A DNA stretch of 4,108 nt from a virus (lineage: Duplodnaviria > Heunggongvirae > Uroviricota > Caudoviricetes), in the IMG/VR virus record IMGVR_UViG_2565956622_000012. One strand, written 5' to 3'. Of the stretch, positions 1 to 4,108 are shown one piece after another. The notes beneath the pieces are model-generated. The model made no database searches. It was not told where the DNA came from and saw nothing but the letters and a program-made list of their open reading frames with translations. The translations under genes were made by a program, and so were the position numbers. Position 1 is the first letter of the stretch; the number at the start of each line of letters is the position of its first letter.

Positions 1-2
1 TA

Positions 3-137
3 TCACCACCGACTATTTGCAACAGTGCCATTAAAAAAATGTCGTCACGCGATTTTATTCAGTTGTGCGCTGTGGCTGTAAATTTTATGAGCGAGCCAGA
101 CTCTGGCGCGAAGAGCGTGCAGGAGACGGCAGCGTAA
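3..137 (+). CDS. Phage tail assembly chaperone gpE-like, C-terminal fragment (5' end lies outside the window); zero frame for the E/E' -1 frameshift
   Basis: Frame 3 is open from the window edge to TAA at 135-137 (…IKKMSSRDFIQLCAVAVNFMSEPDSGAKSVQETAA*). It sits immediately upstream of, and overlapping, the conserved E' frame, as expected for the P2 E/E' arrangement. Openness alone is weak evidence (45 codons); the call rests on synteny with E', T and U. Confidence 0.4.
   Translation, partial: SPPTICNSAIKKMSSRDFIQLCAVAVNFMSEPDSGAKSVQETAA
4..29. repeat. Left copy of a perfect 26-bp inverted repeat (caccaccgactatttgcaacagtgcc)
   Basis: Exact reverse complement of 4083-4108, with an imperfect extension of about 9 further bp inward. 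It lies in the E reading frame at the window edge. Confidence 0.95.
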
Positions 138-301
138 TCACCCTGGTGTGCTTTGAGCACATCGAAGATCTGGTGGCGGATATTGCCGCCATTTTCAACT
201 GGTCGCCCGCCGAAATCTTCATGATGACGCCCGGCGAAGTGGTTAGCTGGCGTGAGCGGGCGGCACTTCGCAGCGGGAATGCAGATAATGAAGACTCTTG
301 A
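65..301 (+). CDS. GpE-family phage tail protein (E' extension), probably expressed as an E+E' fusion by programmed -1 frameshift; frame 2 is open 35-301
   Basis: The frame-2 translation …FNWSPAEIFMMTPGEVVSWRERAALRSGNA… matches the conserved W-x-P-x-E…M…E…W…A…R-S-G pattern of the P2 GpE/E' family. It ends at TGA 299-301, overlapping the tape measure start, as in the P2 F-E-T-U-D operon. Frame 2 is closed upstream by TAA at 32-34, so entry is by frameshift from frame 3 or from an internal start (GTG 65). Confidence 0.65.
   Translation: MRCGCKFYERARLWREERAGDGSVITLVCFEHIEDLVADIAAIFNWSPAEIFMMTPGEVVSWRERAALRSGNADNEDS
80..86 (+). other. Candidate -1 programmed frameshift slippery heptamer A_AAT_TTT (X_XXY_YYZ in the E frame)
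   Basis: AAATTTT at 80-86 is phased so that codons AAT (81-83) and TTT (84-86) are in frame 3; a -1 slip enters frame 2, the conserved E' frame. An alternative slippery element is the A7 run at 33-39. Confidence 0.35.
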
Positions 302-3095
302 CATCCGGGTCGCTTTCAGCGCCGTTGACAGGCTGACCCGGCCTGCCGAAAACGCCCGCCGCCTGATGGGGCAGTTTGGTGACTCCATTCAGCGAACGCA
401 GGGGGCGATCAAAAATCTCGAGCGTCAGGCGCGTTCATTTGAGCGCGCCCGCGACGCTGTCAGTAAAGCGGATGCGGGTATCGTGAAAGCACGACGCCAG
501 CTTAACGCCCTTAATCAGTTACAACGCACGGGTACAGTGCTCAGCGAAAAACAACAAAAGCTGATGCAGCAGTTAAGCACCCGGCTTGAACGCCTGAATG
601 AATCGCGCACACGGGAAATTCAGAAAATGCGGGAGCTTGGCGGAGAACTGAAACGCCACGGCATTTCCCTGACAGGCAGCGATAACACCATCCAGCAGGC
701 CATCAGACGCACCGAACAATACAACAACCAGCTTGAACGCGAACGGCAGGCGCTTGCGCGTGTAACGCAGGCTCGTGAGCGGTATTCGCGCGCGCAGGAA
801 ACCGCGGGAAAACTGAAAACAGGTGGTGCGCTGGCAATTGGTGCGGCAGCGGCGGGCGGCTATGCTGCCGGGCGTTTTTTGCAGCCCGCGATCGGGTTCG
901 GCAAAGAGATGTCCCGCGTTCAGGCGCTGACGCGAATCGACAAAAACAGCCCGCAGTTTAAGGCGCTGCGTGAGCAGGCGTTAAAACTTGGCTCTGAAAC
1001 ACAGTTTACTGCGAGTGATGCCGCCAGTGGGCAGAGCTTTCTGGCAATGGCTGGTTTTACTCCGCAGGCCATTCAGGCCGCATTGCCCGGTGTTCTTAAT
1101 ATGGCGCTGGCAGGTGGCGTCGAACTCGGCGAGACGGCTGATATAGGCTCCAATATCCTCACACAGTTCAACCTGACAGCCGATCAAATGGACCGGGTTG
1201 GCGATACGCTGACAGCGGCATTCACCCGGACCAATACTGATTTACGCGCGCTGGGCGAAACCATGAAGTATACCGGTCCGGTTGCCGCAAAACTTGGTAT
1301 CAGTCTTGAAGAAGCGGCAGCCATGGCCGGGATGCTTGCCAATAATGGTCTTCGTGGAAGCGATGCTGGTACGGCCATGCGCGCAAGTCTGTCCCGCCTT
1401 GCATCACCGCCAAAAGCTGCGGCTGATGCGCTGAAAGAGCTGGGGGTGTCAGTTGCTGACGCCAGAGGCAAAATGCGCCCGATGGAGGATGTGCTGCTTG
1501 ATCTCTATAAGGCGACACAAAAATACGGACAGGTGGACCAGGTTTCCTTCTTCAAGGACATCGCCGGAGAAGAGGCGTTCGTTGGTTTGCAGACGCTTGT
1601 TGCGGCGGCTGGTTCAGGAGAGCTGCAAAAACTGACCAGAGAATTGCAGGGGGCAAGGGGAGAGGCCGATCGCGTTGCAAAAGTAATGGCCGATAATCTT
1701 GATGGGGACCTGAAAAATCTCGACAGCGCATGGGAAGGTCTTCGTATTCGCATCAGTGATCTGGTTGACGGTCCGCTGCGTTCTGTCACGCAGTGGCTCA
1801 CGCGGGTGCTTGAAAAAATCACCTCGCTGGCGCAGGCCCATCCGGTACTGACGCGCCAGCTACTGATAGCAGGCGGTGCGTTGCTGGCAATGACTGCAAC
1901 GGTTGGCTCGTTGTCGCTGGCTATTGGTGTGCTTGCTGGCCCGCTGGCAAAACTGCGTCTTGGCTTTTCCCTCCTGACCGGTTCAATGAATGCTGTCAGA
2001 CTCCTGCCAGCACTATGGGGAATGGTGACGGGTTCCGTTTCGTTACTGGGGGGCGCTATCGGGGCGTTGTTCAGTCCGGTCGGCCTTATCGTGGCTGCGC
2101 TTGCCGGAGCTGCCGTTCTCATCTGGAAATACTGGGATCCCATCAGGGCATTTTTTGCCGGGGTGTTCAGCGGGATTATGGAAAGGCTGACCCCGTTGCG
2201 CGAAACCTTTGAACGGTTTGGTCCTGTTTTTGACGCAATCGGGAGTGGGATCAGCCAGGTGTTTAACTGGTTTAAATCGCTGCTGTCTCCGATGGAGTCC
2301 AGCAAGGAAACTCTGGATAAATGTACCAGTGCTGGCGAGATATTCGGTAACGTTCTTGGCGGTGCGTTACAACTTGTTCTGACACCTGCAAAAATGTTGC
2401 TGGATACGCTGGCGTGGATACTTGAAAAGCTTGGTGTGCTTCCGGATGAAGCGGAAAGGGCGCGCAAGAAAATCGAAGACGCACAGCGTGCGGCCATTCT
2501 TCAGGACAAGGTTGCCTTGCTTCAGGGGGACCTGGCGAAAATCAATCCGCCGAAGCCTGTGGAAAATGGCAATGGCACCGGAGGTGATAACCCCAAAGAC
2601 AATAAACCGCTCACAGACAGCAATACCGGTACGCTGCGCAGACTCAGCAAAATTGCTGATAACACAGGTAAGCTGGTTGAGGAGACGAAAAAACGCATTG
2701 GCCCCGGCGATATTGTCTTTAAAAACCTGCCCCGAGCACTTGCTGTTCGTGGGGAGTGGCAGGAGCGGAAGATTGCGCAGGTCAGTAAGCCTGCCCCCGC
2801 AATTAATATCACACCCGTGGTCCCGGCTCCGCTGCCTCCGGCGCTGGTCCCTGTTGTTGCGGCCAGCTCCCGCCCGGTGGCGGAGGCTATACGATCTCCA
2901 GTGGCATCAGTTCCTGTAACTTCCCGTAACCGGGAGCCTGTTGCCTCCGGATTTGGTGGTGAAATTCATGTTCATCTGCATAACGTTGTTACGCAGAATC
3001 CCCGCGAACTGGCGAAACTGGTCGGTGAAATGGTCAGGGCAGAAATGGAACGGCGCGCCCGTGCCGGGCGTGGCAGTTTTTACGATAAAGATTGA
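288..3095 (+). CDS. Phage tail tape measure protein (P2 gpT-like)
   Basis: A 2.8-kb ORF ending at TGA 3093-3095. It has a charged coiled-coil-like N-terminal region, a conserved tape-measure core (…LTRIDKNSPQFKALREQALKLGSETQFTASDAASGQSFLAMAGFTP…GVELGETADIGSNILTQFNLTADQMDRVGDTLTAAFTRTNTDLRALGETMKYTGPVAAKLGISLEEAAAMAGMLANNGLRGSDAGTAMRASL…), a long central hydrophobic Gly/Ala/Leu-rich segment, and a Pro/Ala/Val-rich C-terminal linker. The start is ambiguous (GTG 252, ATG 279, ATG 288); ATG 288 has GGGA about 9 nt upstream and gives MKTLDIRVAFSAV…. Confidence 0.92.
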   Translation: MKTLDIRVAFSAVDRLTRPAENARRLMGQFGDSIQRTQGAIKNLERQARSFERARDAVSKADAGIVKARRQLNALNQLQRTGTVLSEKQQKLMQQLSTRLERLNESRTREIQKMRELGGELKRHGISLTGSDNTIQQAIRRTEQYNNQLERERQALARVTQARERYSRAQETAGKLKTGGALAIGAAAAGGYAAGRFLQPAIGFGKEMSRVQALTRIDKNSPQFKALREQALKLGSETQFTASDAASGQSFLAMAGFTPQAIQAALPGVLNMALAGGVELGETADIGSNILTQFNLTADQMDRVGDTLTAAFTRTNTDLRALGETMKYTGPVAAKLGISLEEAAAMAGMLANNGLRGSDAGTAMRASLSRLASPPKAAADALKELGVSVADARGKMRPMEDVLLDLYKATQKYGQVDQVSFFKDIAGEEAFVGLQTLVAAAGSGELQKLTRELQGARGEADRVAKVMADNLDGDLKNLDSAWEGLRIRISDLVDGPLRSVTQWLTRVLEKITSLAQAHPVLTRQLLIAGGALLAMTATVGSLSLAIGVLAGPLAKLRLGFSLLTGSMNAVRLLPALWGMVTGSVSLLGGAIGALFSPVGLIVAALAGAAVLIWKYWDPIRAFFAGVFSGIMERLTPLRETFERFGPVFDAIGSGISQVFNWFKSLLSPMESSKETLDKCTSAGEIFGNVLGGALQLVLTPAKMLLDTLAWILEKLGVLPDEAERARKKIEDAQRAAILQDKVALLQGDLAKINPPKPVENGNGTGGDNPKDNKPLTDSNTGTLRRLSKIADNTGKLVEETKKRIGPGDIVFKNLPRALAVRGEWQERKIAQVSKPAPAINITPVVPAPLPPALVPVVAASSRPVAEAIRSPVASVPVTSRNREPVASGFGGEIHVHLHNVVTQNPRELAKLVGEMVRAEMERRARAGRGSFYDKD

Positions 3096-3099
3096 GGAG
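3094..3099 (+). promoter_or_regulatory. Shine-Dalgarno (GAGGAG) for the gpU-like gene, overlapping the tape measure stop codon (translational coupling)
   Basis: GAGGAG at 3094-3099 lies 8 nt upstream of ATG 3108 and immediately after the T stop TGA 3093-3095. Confidence 0.6.
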
Positions 3100-3107
3100 T
3101 CATGGCC

Positions 3108-3596
3108 ATGATGATGATCTACGGCATGTTTGTTTTTGAGCTGCGCACGCTGCCGCATCAGCAGTTACAGCAAAACAAAAGCTGGCGGCATGTGAAAAAT
3201 GAACGCGTTAACCGTTCAGCAAGCTGGCAGTATATCGGTGCAGGTGATGATCGCATCGTTCTTTCTGGTGTGCTTTATCCTGAAATTACAGGTGGCGAAG
3301 TGTCGCTGTCGCTGCTGACCACGCAGGCGTATACAGGACGACCCTGGCCTTTGATTGATGGCGTCGGGCAGATTTACGGCATGTATGTCCTGACTGAAAC
3401 GAATACGACCCGCTCCGAGTTTGATCGCTACGGTAAGGCGAAAAAGATAGAATTTTCACTGACTCTTGAACGCTGTGATGAGGATTTGCGGGAGCGCCTG
3501 CAATCCTCATCGTTCAGTGATATGCTGTCCGGCTTCAAAGATAAGGTGACATCATCTCTTAACAGCGCGGCCAGTTCAGTTAAAGGGCTGTTCTGA
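3108..3596 (+). CDS. Phage tail protein gpU-like (P2 U family)
   Basis: ORF MMMIYGMFVFELRTLPHQQL…WRH…NERV…LSGVLYPEITGG…WPLIDGVGQIYGMYVLT…KKIEFSLTLERCDE… has the N-terminus and motif spacing I recall for P2 gpU-family proteins. It sits directly downstream of the tape measure gene and ends at TGA 3594-3596. An in-frame ATG at 3102 is too close to the SD; 3108 is preferred. Confidence 0.85.
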   Translation: MMMIYGMFVFELRTLPHQQLQQNKSWRHVKNERVNRSASWQYIGAGDDRIVLSGVLYPEITGGEVSLSLLTTQAYTGRPWPLIDGVGQIYGMYVLTETNTTRSEFDRYGKAKKIEFSLTLERCDEDLRERLQSSSFSDMLSGFKDKVTSSLNSAASSVKGLF

Positions 3597-3605
3597 TTTA
3601 ACACA

Positions 3606-3640
3606 AAAACCGCTAATGGTCAGATTAGCGGTTTTCATTT
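3606..3640 (+). terminator. Bidirectional rho-independent terminator shared by the convergent gpU-like gene and invertase remnant
   Basis: Perfect 12-bp inverted repeat aaaaccgctaat (3606-3617) / attagcggtttt (3624-3635) with a 6-nt loop ggtcag, followed by a T-run (ttttcatttt) on the + strand and preceded by an A-run (a T-run on the - strand). The invertase stop codon (TAA, complement of 3625-3627) lies inside the stem. Confidence 0.7.
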
Positions 3641-4082
3641 TCCTGAGTCTGCCCGGTTGTTTCTTCAGTCTGTATATCGCCTACAGGGTGATAACGATAA
3701 ATCGTCGATGTGCCAATGCCGTAAATTATTGCCAGTTGTTTTCTGTCGTGCCCGTTTTTGATTAGCCTTGCTATTTGCTCATGCTGTTCTTTTGTCAGCT
3801 TCGGTCGACGTCCGCCTGTGCGCCCCCTTGCGCGCGCTGCCGCCAGCCCGGCCAGTGTACGTTCAACAATTAATTCACGTTCCATTTCAGCCAGGGCACC
3901 CATCACGTGGAAGAAAAAACGCCCCATTGGAGAAGATGTGTCTATGCTGTCGGTCAGACTGCGAAAATTAATCCCTCGCTCCCGTAGTTCCCCGACGAGA
4001 GAAATCAGATGTTTCATGCTTCGCCCGAGGCGATCCAGTTTCCAGACAACCAGCGTGTCACCTTTTTGAAGGCGCTTTAAAG
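3625..4082 (-). pseudogene. DNA invertase (Hin/Gin/Pin/Cin-family serine recombinase), 5'-truncated remnant lacking the N-terminal catalytic serine region; C-terminal HTH retained
   Basis: The - strand translation …LKRLQKGDTLVVWKLDRLGRSMKHLISLVGELRERGINFRSLTDSIDTSSPMGRFFFHVMGALAEMERELIVERTLAGLAAARARGRTGGRRPKL…GHDRKQLAIIYGIGTSTIYRYHP… corresponds to roughly residues 45-190 of Gin/Hin-type invertases (by recollection). The first ~45 residues, including the catalytic Ser (GYxRVSTxxQ motif), are absent. In-frame sequence upstream of 4082 (…TTDYLQQCP) does not resemble the conserved …RPGLKRAL… region and is the inverted copy of window positions 4-29. The ORF track calls 3625-4095 using a TTG start. 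Confidence 0.8.
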
Positions 4083-4108
4083 GGCACTGTTGCAAATAGT
4101 CGGTGGTG
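4083..4108. repeat. Right copy of the perfect 26-bp inverted repeat (ggcactgttgcaaatagtcggtggtg)
   Basis: Exact reverse complement of 4-29. It begins precisely where invertase homology ends. Confidence 0.95.

What the first reader, a model, noticed from the sequence alone, without database searches (positions are those of the whole stretch)
4060..4108. Invertase homology ends exactly at the inverted-repeat boundary, giving a chimeric E-fragment/invertase junction
Reading the - strand, invertase-like sequence (LKRLQKGDTLVVWKLDRLGRS…) is near-identical to Gin/Hin-type proteins as I recall them, up to about position 4080. The next in-frame codons (TTDYLQQCP, 4083-4108) diverge completely from the conserved …DRPGLKRAL… segment and are instead the inverted copy of sequence in the tail chaperone E frame at the window start. 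The recombinase has therefore lost its first ~45 codons, including the catalytic serine, at a discrete breakpoint. The remnant keeps an intact C-terminal helix-turn-helix and dimerisation helix, so a DNA-binding fragment without catalytic activity could in principle still be made from an internal start; that is speculation.
Basis: partly seen in the sequence, partly recalled or inferred. Interest (0 to 1): 0.6.

Follow-up and report, generated by a model that had tools for sequence, protein, structure and literature searches.

The report
IS26 ends truncate a prophage invertase
The "inverted repeat" at which the invertase gene breaks off is the tip of the common insertion sequence IS26, present in opposite orientations at both ends of this 4.1-kb E. 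coli contig, so this is ordinary transposon damage to a prophage and not a fusion between two phage genes.

Summary
Gin-type invertase homology on the - strand stops at 4082, and 4083-4108 is an exact inverted copy of 4-29. The repeated sequence is not tail-chaperone E sequence. Both arms (1-29 and 4083-4108) are foreign to the prophage and are identical to the first 29 and 26 nt of the transposase-proximal end (IRL) of IS26. Positions 30-4082 are an exact 4,053-bp copy of a P88-like (P2-family) prophage tail block: gpE 3' end, E', tape measure, gpU and invertase codons 49-199.

The window is the whole contig KI531525.1 of the draft genome of E. coli 907701, which breaks inside the multicopy IS26. 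An independent assembly (SRR28811615) has the identical IS26/invertase junction with gpE intact, in the chromosome next to serS. I predicted the partner junction product, gpE(1-89) plus the 8-bp duplication ATTAAAAA plus IS26 IRR read-through. That exact 97-aa protein exists in strain 907701, so the gpE event was a genuine IS26 transposition.

The invertase has lost residues 1-48, including catalytic Ser9, and its upstream gix site. No promoter-like site precedes the remnant. This is a known phenomenon of low interest.

The parts
1..29 (-). Terminal 29 nt of the IRL (transposase-proximal) end of IS26, copy A. The body of the element lies to the left of the window, with tnp26 on the - strand.
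   Evidence: The reverse complement equals nt 1-29 of the annotated 820-bp IS26 in L003 16372-17191. It is absent from the native prophage: all best hits start at window position 30.
30..37 (.). ATTAAAAA, the inner copy of the 8-bp target-site duplication of the IS26 event in gpE.
   Evidence: The predicted product gpE(1-89)+IKK+ALLQS* requires ATTAAAAA followed by the IS26 IRR end. It exists exactly as ESD25605.1 in the same strain.
30..137 (+). 3' remnant of the gpE-like tail assembly chaperone gene (codons 90-124 plus stop). The first 89 codons are cut off by IS26.
   Evidence: Identical to L002 6001-6108, the end of the 124-aa 'tail protein' CDS at 5734-6108.
146..301 (+). E' part (GpE family) of the tail chaperone, in the -1 frame relative to gpE.
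   Evidence: Pfam PF06528 Phage_P2_GpE, E=1e-12. Corresponds to the CDS at L002 6117-6272.
288..3095 (+). Tail tape measure protein (gpT-like, 935 aa), intact.
   Evidence: PF10145, E=1.6e-56. 100% identical to the CDS at L002 6259-9066.
3108..3596 (+). gpU-like tail protein (162 aa), intact.
   Evidence: PF06995 Phage_P2_GpU, E=5e-39. Corresponds to L002 9079-9567.
3606..3635 (.). 12-bp-stem hairpin between the convergent gpU and invertase genes, terminator-like on the + strand scan. It overlaps the invertase stop codon.
   Evidence: (I17).
3625..4082 (-). 3' remnant of a Gin-type serine DNA invertase gene: codons 49-199 plus stop, and 2 nt of codon 48. Residues 1-48, including Ser9, are missing.
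4075..4082 (.). CTTTAAAG, the 8 bp of invertase sequence abutting IS26 copy B. It is a perfect palindrome and the presumed target sequence of the invertase-site event. A partner copy was not found.
   Evidence: Read directly from the sequence. The predicted partner-junction peptides are absent from the protein collection, which is inconclusive.
4083..4108 (+). Terminal 26 nt of the IRL end of IS26, copy B. The body of the element lies to the right of the window, with tnp26 on the + strand.
   Evidence: Equals nt 1-26 of the annotated IS26 in L003. The identical junction is present in the independent contig SRR28811615_252.

Best explanation
The window is a complete short-read contig (KI531525.1, E. 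coli 907701). It holds a 4,053-bp piece of a chromosomal P88-like (P2-family) prophage tail module, caught between two oppositely oriented copies of IS26. The assembler stopped 29 and 26 nt inside those copies because IS26 is multicopy.

The invertase 'breakpoint' at 4082|4083 is the exact tip (GGCACTG...) of one IS26. The 'inverted copy' at the window start is the same IRL tip of the second IS26, which interrupts gpE at 29|30.

Shown: both arms are IS26 IRL ends. The DNA between them is colinear with and identical to the native prophage. The invertase junction also occurs in another isolate whose gpE is intact. The gpE event made the 8-bp target duplication typical of IS26.

Inferred history: an IS26 first landed in, or deleted up to, codon 48 of the invertase gene. 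That removed the promoter, the gix site, Ser9 and probably the Fis enhancer, and so killed tail-fibre switching. In the 907701 lineage a second IS26 copy then arose in gpE. I think the most likely route (about 0.6) is intramolecular replicative transposition 'in trans' from the invertase-site copy. This produces exactly this geometry (inverted copies, same end facing inward) and would have inverted the 4-kb segment relative to its flanks. The alternative (about 0.3) is an independent insertion.

Both truncated genes are dead remnants. The prophage is defective.
For: Arms are identical to the IS26 IRL end, including 12-15 nt beyond the 14-nt IR shared by both IS26 ends, so both arms are IRL and two IS copies are required. 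That end occurs in at least 5,000 plasmid records.

All best matches in 5,426 complete E. coli genomes and in PLSDB cover only 30-4082/4085, at 100% identity.

Source contig length equals window length, and L015 is the exact reverse complement of the window.

The SRR28811615 contig is identical to the window over 30-4108. It then continues through intact gpE, FII, FI, D, ogr, hok, serS and rarA, the same chromosomal context as AR_0086.

The predicted 97-aa gpE-TSD-IRR fusion is present as ESD25605.1 [E. coli 907701] on a 19,152-bp contig.

The IS26 biology comes from PMC4471558 and PMC7986276: 8-bp duplications, and inverted copies with inverted 8-bp flanks after intramolecular transposition in trans.
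Against: Only 26-29 nt of each IS26 are visible. The transposase genes and the outer flanks are not in the window.

No partner junction (invertase 5' part + CTTTAAAG + IRR) was found among eight predicted partial peptides. The invertase-site event may therefore have been a deletion rather than an insertion, and what lies beyond that IS26 is unknown.

Inversion and independent insertion give identical short-read junctions and could not be told apart.
Confidence: 0.92

Rival explanations
1. Two independent IS26 insertions, each a cointegrate followed by resolution, hit gpE and the invertase gene. The 4-kb segment keeps its native orientation relative to its flanks.
For: The 8-bp duplication ATTAAAAA at the gpE site is also what a simple insertion leaves. 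The invertase junction exists alone in SRR28811615, so the two events were separate in time.
Against: It requires a second insertion to land by chance within 4 kb of an existing copy and in the opposite orientation. In the clinical genomes surveyed in PMC4471558, none of about 70 IS26 copies had a direct 8-bp duplication. Neither argument is decisive.
Confidence: 0.3
2. One reading: a rearrangement between gpE and the invertase gene placed an inverted copy of gpE coding sequence at the invertase breakpoint, making a chimeric E/invertase junction.
For: There is an exact 26-nt inverted repeat at the two ends of the window.
Against: The repeated 26-29 nt are absent from native gpE in every matching genome, where alignments begin at position 30. 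They are identical to the tip of an annotated IS26.
Confidence: 0.01
3. Assembly artefact: the IS26 fragments were wrongly appended to the contig ends and no IS26 abuts these genes in the real genome.
For: The source is a 2013 short-read draft. The contig ends lie inside a multicopy repeat.
Against: Both junctions fall at the exact terminal nucleotide of IS26. The invertase junction was recovered independently from a different sequencing run and assembler (Logan SRR28811615). The reciprocal gpE junction, with the correct 8-bp duplication, exists on another contig of the same strain.
Confidence: 0.02
4. The segment is a deletion derivative of a larger IS26-bounded prophage fragment carried on a plasmid, like the 16.3-kb fragment in IncC plasmid pC-Ec2-KPC. 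IS26-mediated adjacent deletions then trimmed it from both sides.
For: pC-Ec2-KPC carries the same prophage DNA, 100% identical over 30-4082, between inverted IS26 copies whose IRL ends face inward.
Against: Adjacent deletion leaves no target duplication, yet the gpE site has one. The identical invertase junction in SRR28811615 is contiguous with the chromosomal genes serS and rarA.
Confidence: 0.04

Closest known systems
IS26 (IS6 family insertion sequence) and its intramolecular replicative transposition products (He et al. 2015, PMC4471558; Varani et al. 2021, PMC7986276)
   Same: The terminal sequence is identical to the IS26 IRL end. The junctions lie at the exact IS tip. There is an 8-bp target duplication at the gpE site. 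The two copies are in opposite orientation with the same end facing the enclosed DNA, and they truncate genes on both sides.
   Different: Only 26-29 nt of each copy are in the window. The setting is a chromosomal prophage tail operon rather than a resistance plasmid. Whether the enclosed segment is inverted was not determined.
Gin of phage Mu (also Hin, Pin, Cin): Fis-dependent serine DNA invertases that switch tail-fibre or flagellin genes
   Same: The intact allele of this gene (199 aa) aligns with Gin over residues 1-183 at E=3e-100 and is nearly identical through the catalytic domain. In intact prophages it sits next to an invertible tail-fibre segment, with a gix-like site about 55 bp upstream. 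The gix consensus is from my memory.
   Different: The copy in the window lacks residues 1-48 (catalytic Ser9), its promoter and the gix site. It cannot be a recombinase.
Escherichia phage P88 / Xuanwuvirus and Escherichia phage 500465-2 (P2-like Peduoviridae) tail module
   Same: The order gpE/E'-T-U followed by a convergent DNA invertase is the native order in these phages. Positions 30-4082 are 91-97% identical to them and 100% identical to prophages next to serS in many E. coli.
   Different: Here the module is cut at both ends by IS26.
pC-Ec2-KPC (NZ_MK439959.1), IncC KPC plasmid
   Same: It carries the same prophage sequence bounded by inverted IS26 copies with IRL ends facing inward.
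   Different: Its fragment is 16.3 kb with intact gpE and invertase, and the IS26 junctions are at other positions.

Membership tests
IS26 / IS6 family insertion sequence | 14-bp terminal inverted repeat GGCACTGTTGCAAA at the element tip | tested here: met
   Both arms start with it, and the junction with host DNA is exactly at the first G.
IS26 / IS6 family insertion sequence | Subterminal sequence specific to IS26 (IRL side: ...TAGTCGGTGGTGATA) | tested here: met
   26 of 26 and 29 of 29 nt are identical to the annotated 820-bp IS26 in L003 16372-17191. They differ from that element's IRR side (...GTTAGCGATGAG).
IS26 / IS6 family insertion sequence | Complete ~820-bp element encoding the DDE transposase Tnp26 | not testable with these tools
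   The contig ends 26-29 nt inside each copy.
IS26 / IS6 family insertion sequence | 8-bp target-site duplication | tested here: met
   gpE site: the inner copy ATTAAAAA is at 30-37. The outer copy is inferred from the exact 97-aa fusion protein ESD25605.1 of the same strain. Invertase site: no partner was found, which is inconclusive.
IS26 pseudo-compound transposon (two directly oriented IS26 flanking a passenger) | The two IS26 copies are in direct orientation | tested here: not met
   Both inward-facing ends are IRL, so the copies are inverted.
Gin/Hin/Pin/Cin DNA invertase (small serine recombinase) | N-terminal catalytic serine in the GYxRVS motif | tested here: not met
   Residues 1-48 are absent. 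The Pfam Resolvase match covers only profile positions 56-144 of 145. The motif is present in the intact allele (MLIGYVRVS).
Gin/Hin/Pin/Cin DNA invertase (small serine recombinase) | C-terminal helix-turn-helix DNA-binding domain and E-helix | tested here: met
   PF02796 HTH_7, E=2e-13. Residues 49-199 are 100% identical to the intact allele.
Gin/Hin/Pin/Cin DNA invertase (small serine recombinase) | Adjacent crossover (gix/hix) sites and an invertible segment | tested here: not met
   Not in the window. In intact prophages a gix-like 26-mer lies at L001 8880-8905, upstream of the gene. That region is replaced by IS26 here.
P2-like (Peduoviridae, P88-like) tail module | gpE/E', tape measure and gpU in this order | tested here: met
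   Pfam PF06528, PF10145 and PF06995. 91-97% nucleotide identity to phages 500465-2 and P88.

The most novel reading that the evidence does not exclude
The N-terminally truncated invertase is still made, for example the 130-aa product from Met70 or a read-through product starting in the IS26 end. As a catalytically dead protein with an intact E-helix and HTH, it would bind gix/pix-type sites and interfere with tail-fibre or e14 Pin-type inversion by paralogous invertases in the same cell. My evidence does not exclude this. It does show no promoter-like site upstream, and it shows that this gene is also inactivated by unrelated frameshift and nonsense mutations in other strains, which points to plain decay.
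Probability: 0.03. Interest if true: 0.35.

Novelty: already known. Interest (0 to 1): 0.08.

Why it matters
It matters little beyond correct annotation. The case shows that a terminal inverted repeat on a short draft contig, coinciding with gene breakpoints, should first be tested against IS ends. Here it is IS26, the commonest IS of resistance plasmids.

It also documents IS26 activity in the chromosome of a clinical E. coli lineage. One IS26/invertase junction is shared by two isolates, and one of them then gained a second, inverted IS26 copy 4 kb away. That activity disabled a prophage's tail-fibre switch and tail chaperone. The same prophage region has been picked up by IS26 onto an IncC KPC plasmid.

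Tried and rejected
1. Exact-pattern scans for the right junction (33-mer) and the left junction (37-mer) in GTDB representative genomes, IMG/VR and JGI metagenomes found nothing. Neither junction is in the 5,426 complete E. coli genomes or in PLSDB.

2. I looked for the missing invertase 5' part in the source strain. I predicted partial peptides consisting of residues 1-50 plus 4-11 codons of IS26 IRR read-through. None is in the protein collection. This is inconclusive, because gene callers may not have called such a fragment.

4. The 130-aa internal-start ORF occurs on 341 contigs. Those I inspected are otherwise intact prophages with point frameshift or nonsense mutations, not IS26 junctions.

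5. The sigma-70 promoter scan of 3560-4108 gave 0 sites. By my own reading of the sequence, the outward-facing TTGCAA in the IS26 IR has no acceptable -10 at 16-18 nt at either junction.

6. I tested whether the FI-U block, inverted relative to P2, is flanked by inverted repeats that might make it invertible. It is not. The arrangement is native to P88-like phages.

7. The 33-nt, 94% inverted repeat reported by the repeat finder extends 7 nt beyond IS26 only because both targets are A/T-rich (ATTAAAA and TTTAAAG). I treat this as chance or target preference, not as part of the repeat.

8. A literature search for pC-Ec2-KPC found no paper.

Full report
**What is in the window.**
ORF listing, Pfam scans and comparison with annotated genomes show a P2-family tail module on the + strand.
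- The last 35 codons of a gpE-like chaperone gene (30-137).
- The E' (GpE family) reading frame (146-301).
- A 935-aa tape measure gene (288-3095).
- gpU (3108-3596).
- A 12-bp-stem hairpin (3606-3635).
- On the - strand, the 3' part of a serine DNA-invertase gene (3625-4082).

The nearest phages are Escherichia phage 500465-2 (97%) and the Xuanwuvirus/P88 group (91-94%). In these, gpU followed by a convergent invertase is the native order.

**Checking the observation.**
The repeat finder reports inverted arms at 4-36 and 4076-4108, of which 4-29 and 4083-4108 form an exact 26-nt pair.

Translation of 3628-4107 (- strand) is 100% identical to residues 49-199 of the intact 199-aa invertase of E. 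coli AR_0086. Upstream of that it reads TTDYLQQCP, which is unrelated to the native ...TDRPGLKRA.

The intact protein matches Mu Gin structures 4m6f and 3uj3 at E=3e-100 over residues 1-183. It begins MLIGYVRVS(9)TNDQ.

At the DNA level, native ...GCGCTTTAAAG|CGCGTTTTAATCC becomes ...GCGCTTTAAAG|GGCACTGTTGCAAATAG in the window. The loss is 48 residues, not about 45.

**What the repeat really is.**
The decisive result came from aligning the whole window to 5,426 complete E. coli genomes and to PLSDB. Every best hit covers only 30-4082/4085, at 100% identity. The 4,053-bp segment 30-4082 is found as an exact substring in L002 and L003. Both ends of the window are therefore foreign to the prophage. 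Native gpE reads ...GAAGTGATG|ATTAAAAAAATG, whereas the window has ...CAACAGTGCC|ATTAAAAAAATG.

I recognised GGCACTGTTGCAAATAGTCGGTGGTG from memory as the transposase-proximal (IRL) end of IS26, and then tested that.
- In plasmid pC-Ec2-KPC, an element annotated 'IS6-like element IS26 family transposase' spans L003 16372-17191 (820 bp).
- It starts GGCACTGTTGCAAATAGTCGGTGGTGATAAAC and ends ...CTAACTTTGCAACAGTGCC.
- The window's right arm equals its nt 1-26, and the reverse complement of window 1-29 equals its nt 1-29.
- This end occurs in at least 5,000 plasmid records.

Both arms carry the IRL-specific bases beyond the 14-nt repeat shared by the two IS26 ends. They therefore cannot be the two ends of one IS26. 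Two copies in opposite orientation are required, each with IRL facing the enclosed phage DNA.

**Where the window comes from.**
The 160-aa translation that runs off the right end of the window is, as an exact sequence, ESD19011.1 'putative DNA-invertase, partial [Escherichia coli 907701]'. It lies on a contig of 4,108 bp. That contig, GCA_000488395.1 KI531525.1, is the exact reverse complement of the window.

The window is thus a whole contig of a draft assembly. Its stopping 26-29 nt inside a multicopy IS is, by inference, the usual behaviour of short-read assemblers.

**History that can be reconstructed.**
The same protein also lies at the end of a 13.5-kb Logan contig from another run, SRR28811615. 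That contig is identical to the window from position 30 through 4108, IS26/invertase junction included. It has native, uninterrupted gpE, and it continues through FII, FI, D, ogr, hok, serS and rarA. This is the same chromosomal context as the intact prophage in AR_0086. So the invertase-site IS26 is chromosomal and is shared by two isolates, and the gpE-site IS26 is an additional event.

IS26 makes 8-bp target duplications (PMC7986276). I therefore predicted the product of the reciprocal gpE junction: gpE residues 1-89, then IKK from ATTAAAAA plus G, then ALLQS-stop from the IS26 IRR end. This exact 97-aa protein exists as ESD25605.1 'phage tail protein E [Escherichia coli 907701]' on a 19,152-bp contig. 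The gpE event is therefore a bona fide IS26 transposition with its target duplication. That rules out an artefact and argues against adjacent deletion for this side.

The analogous prediction for the invertase side (residues 1-50 plus IRR read-through, eight lengths) found nothing. It remains open whether the invertase 5' part, its gix site and the tail-fibre segment persist beyond that IS26.

**Mechanism.**
IS26 moves by replicative transposition. When the target is on the same molecule and attacked 'in trans', three things result (PMC4471558):
- a second IS copy in the opposite orientation;
- inversion of the DNA between the two copies;
- the 8-bp target sequence present once inside and once outside, in inverted orientation.

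Working through that scheme from an IS26 at the invertase site (IRL toward gpU) and a target ATTAAAAA in gpE gives exactly the structure seen: IRL|ATTAAAAA...CTTTAAAG|IRL. It also gives a gpE-5'-ATTAAAAA-IRR junction elsewhere in the genome.

An independent insertion in the inverted orientation gives the same short-read junctions. I favour the intramolecular route at about 0.6 against 0.3. My reasons are the 4-kb proximity, the required orientation, and the rarity of directly duplicated IS26 flanks in clinical genomes. This preference is inference only.

**Consequences.**
- The invertase remnant lacks Ser9 and the first 55 positions of the Resolvase domain profile.
- It lacks its upstream region, including a gix-like 26-mer that in intact prophages lies about 55 bp before the start codon (L001 8880-8905). 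The consensus is recalled from memory.
- By analogy with Hin and Gin, whose Fis enhancer lies about 100 bp from the crossover site inside the 5' coding region, it has probably lost the enhancer too. The distance is from PMC3798978; the intragenic location is from my own knowledge.
- No promoter-like site precedes the remnant.
- gpE has lost 89 of 124 codons.

Both are pseudogene fragments. Tape measure and gpU are intact but stranded.

**Verdict.**
The 'chimeric E/invertase junction' is not: the junction partner is IS26. This is a routine, well-understood kind of event, and the specific junctions are merely new instances of it.

Noticed in passing
L003 (NZ_MK439959.1 pC-Ec2-KPC) 35-60 and 16372-16397: An IncC KPC plasmid carries about 16.3 kb of the same serS-associated P88-like prophage. 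The region runs from cox/C/int through D, FI-U and the invertase to the tail fibre, and is 100% identical to window 30-4082. It lies between two inverted IS26 copies whose IRL ends face inward, so IS26 has moved this chromosomal prophage region onto a resistance plasmid.
   Followed up: partly
L004, L007, L013 (aligned with window 3909-4108): The invertase of this prophage family is inactivated independently in other E. coli genomes. There is a 1-nt deletion in codon 12-13 (L004), a 1-nt deletion in the A-run of codons 53-54 (L007), and a TGG-to-TGA nonsense at Trp61 (L013). The resulting 130-aa internal ORF is annotated on 341 contigs. This suggests recurrent decay of the tail-fibre switch in resident prophages.
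   Followed up: partly
window 80-86: A_AAT_TTT is a canonical X_XXY_YYZ slippery heptamer in the gpE frame. It sits where the -1 frame (E', open from 35 to 301) overlaps gpE, and is the likely programmed-frameshift site for the E+E' chaperone. Annotation pipelines call E' as a separate small gene instead.
   Followed up: no
window 4075-4082 and 30-37: The 8 bp abutting the invertase-site IS26 (CTTTAAAG) form a perfect palindrome. Both IS26 targets are A/T-rich (ATTAAAAA, CTTTAAAG) within otherwise GC-rich genes. This is why the repeat finder extends the inverted repeat to 33 nt at 94%.
   Followed up: no
L001 (E. coli IHE3034) 8880-8905: TTATTTAAAACCTCGGTTTACGAGAA is a gix-like imperfect palindrome. 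It lies about 55 bp upstream of the intact invertase start and at the start of a partial tail-fibre reading frame. It marks the boundary of the invertible tail-fibre segment that the window has lost.
   Followed up: no
L001/L002/L003: D gene versus the FI-U block: In this prophage family FI-FII-E-T-U is transcribed in the opposite direction to D/ogr and to the baseplate and tail-fibre genes, unlike P2. No flanking inverted repeats were found, and the order is shared with P88-like phages. In some strains (IHE3034, AR_0086) D is annotated as shortened (261-266 aa against 369 aa).
   Followed up: partly
window 3606-3635: A perfect 12-bp-stem hairpin (AAAACCGCTAAT/ATTAGCGGTTTT) has A/T runs on both sides. 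It sits between the convergent gpU and invertase genes, overlaps the invertase stop codon, and looks like a bidirectional terminator.
   Followed up: no
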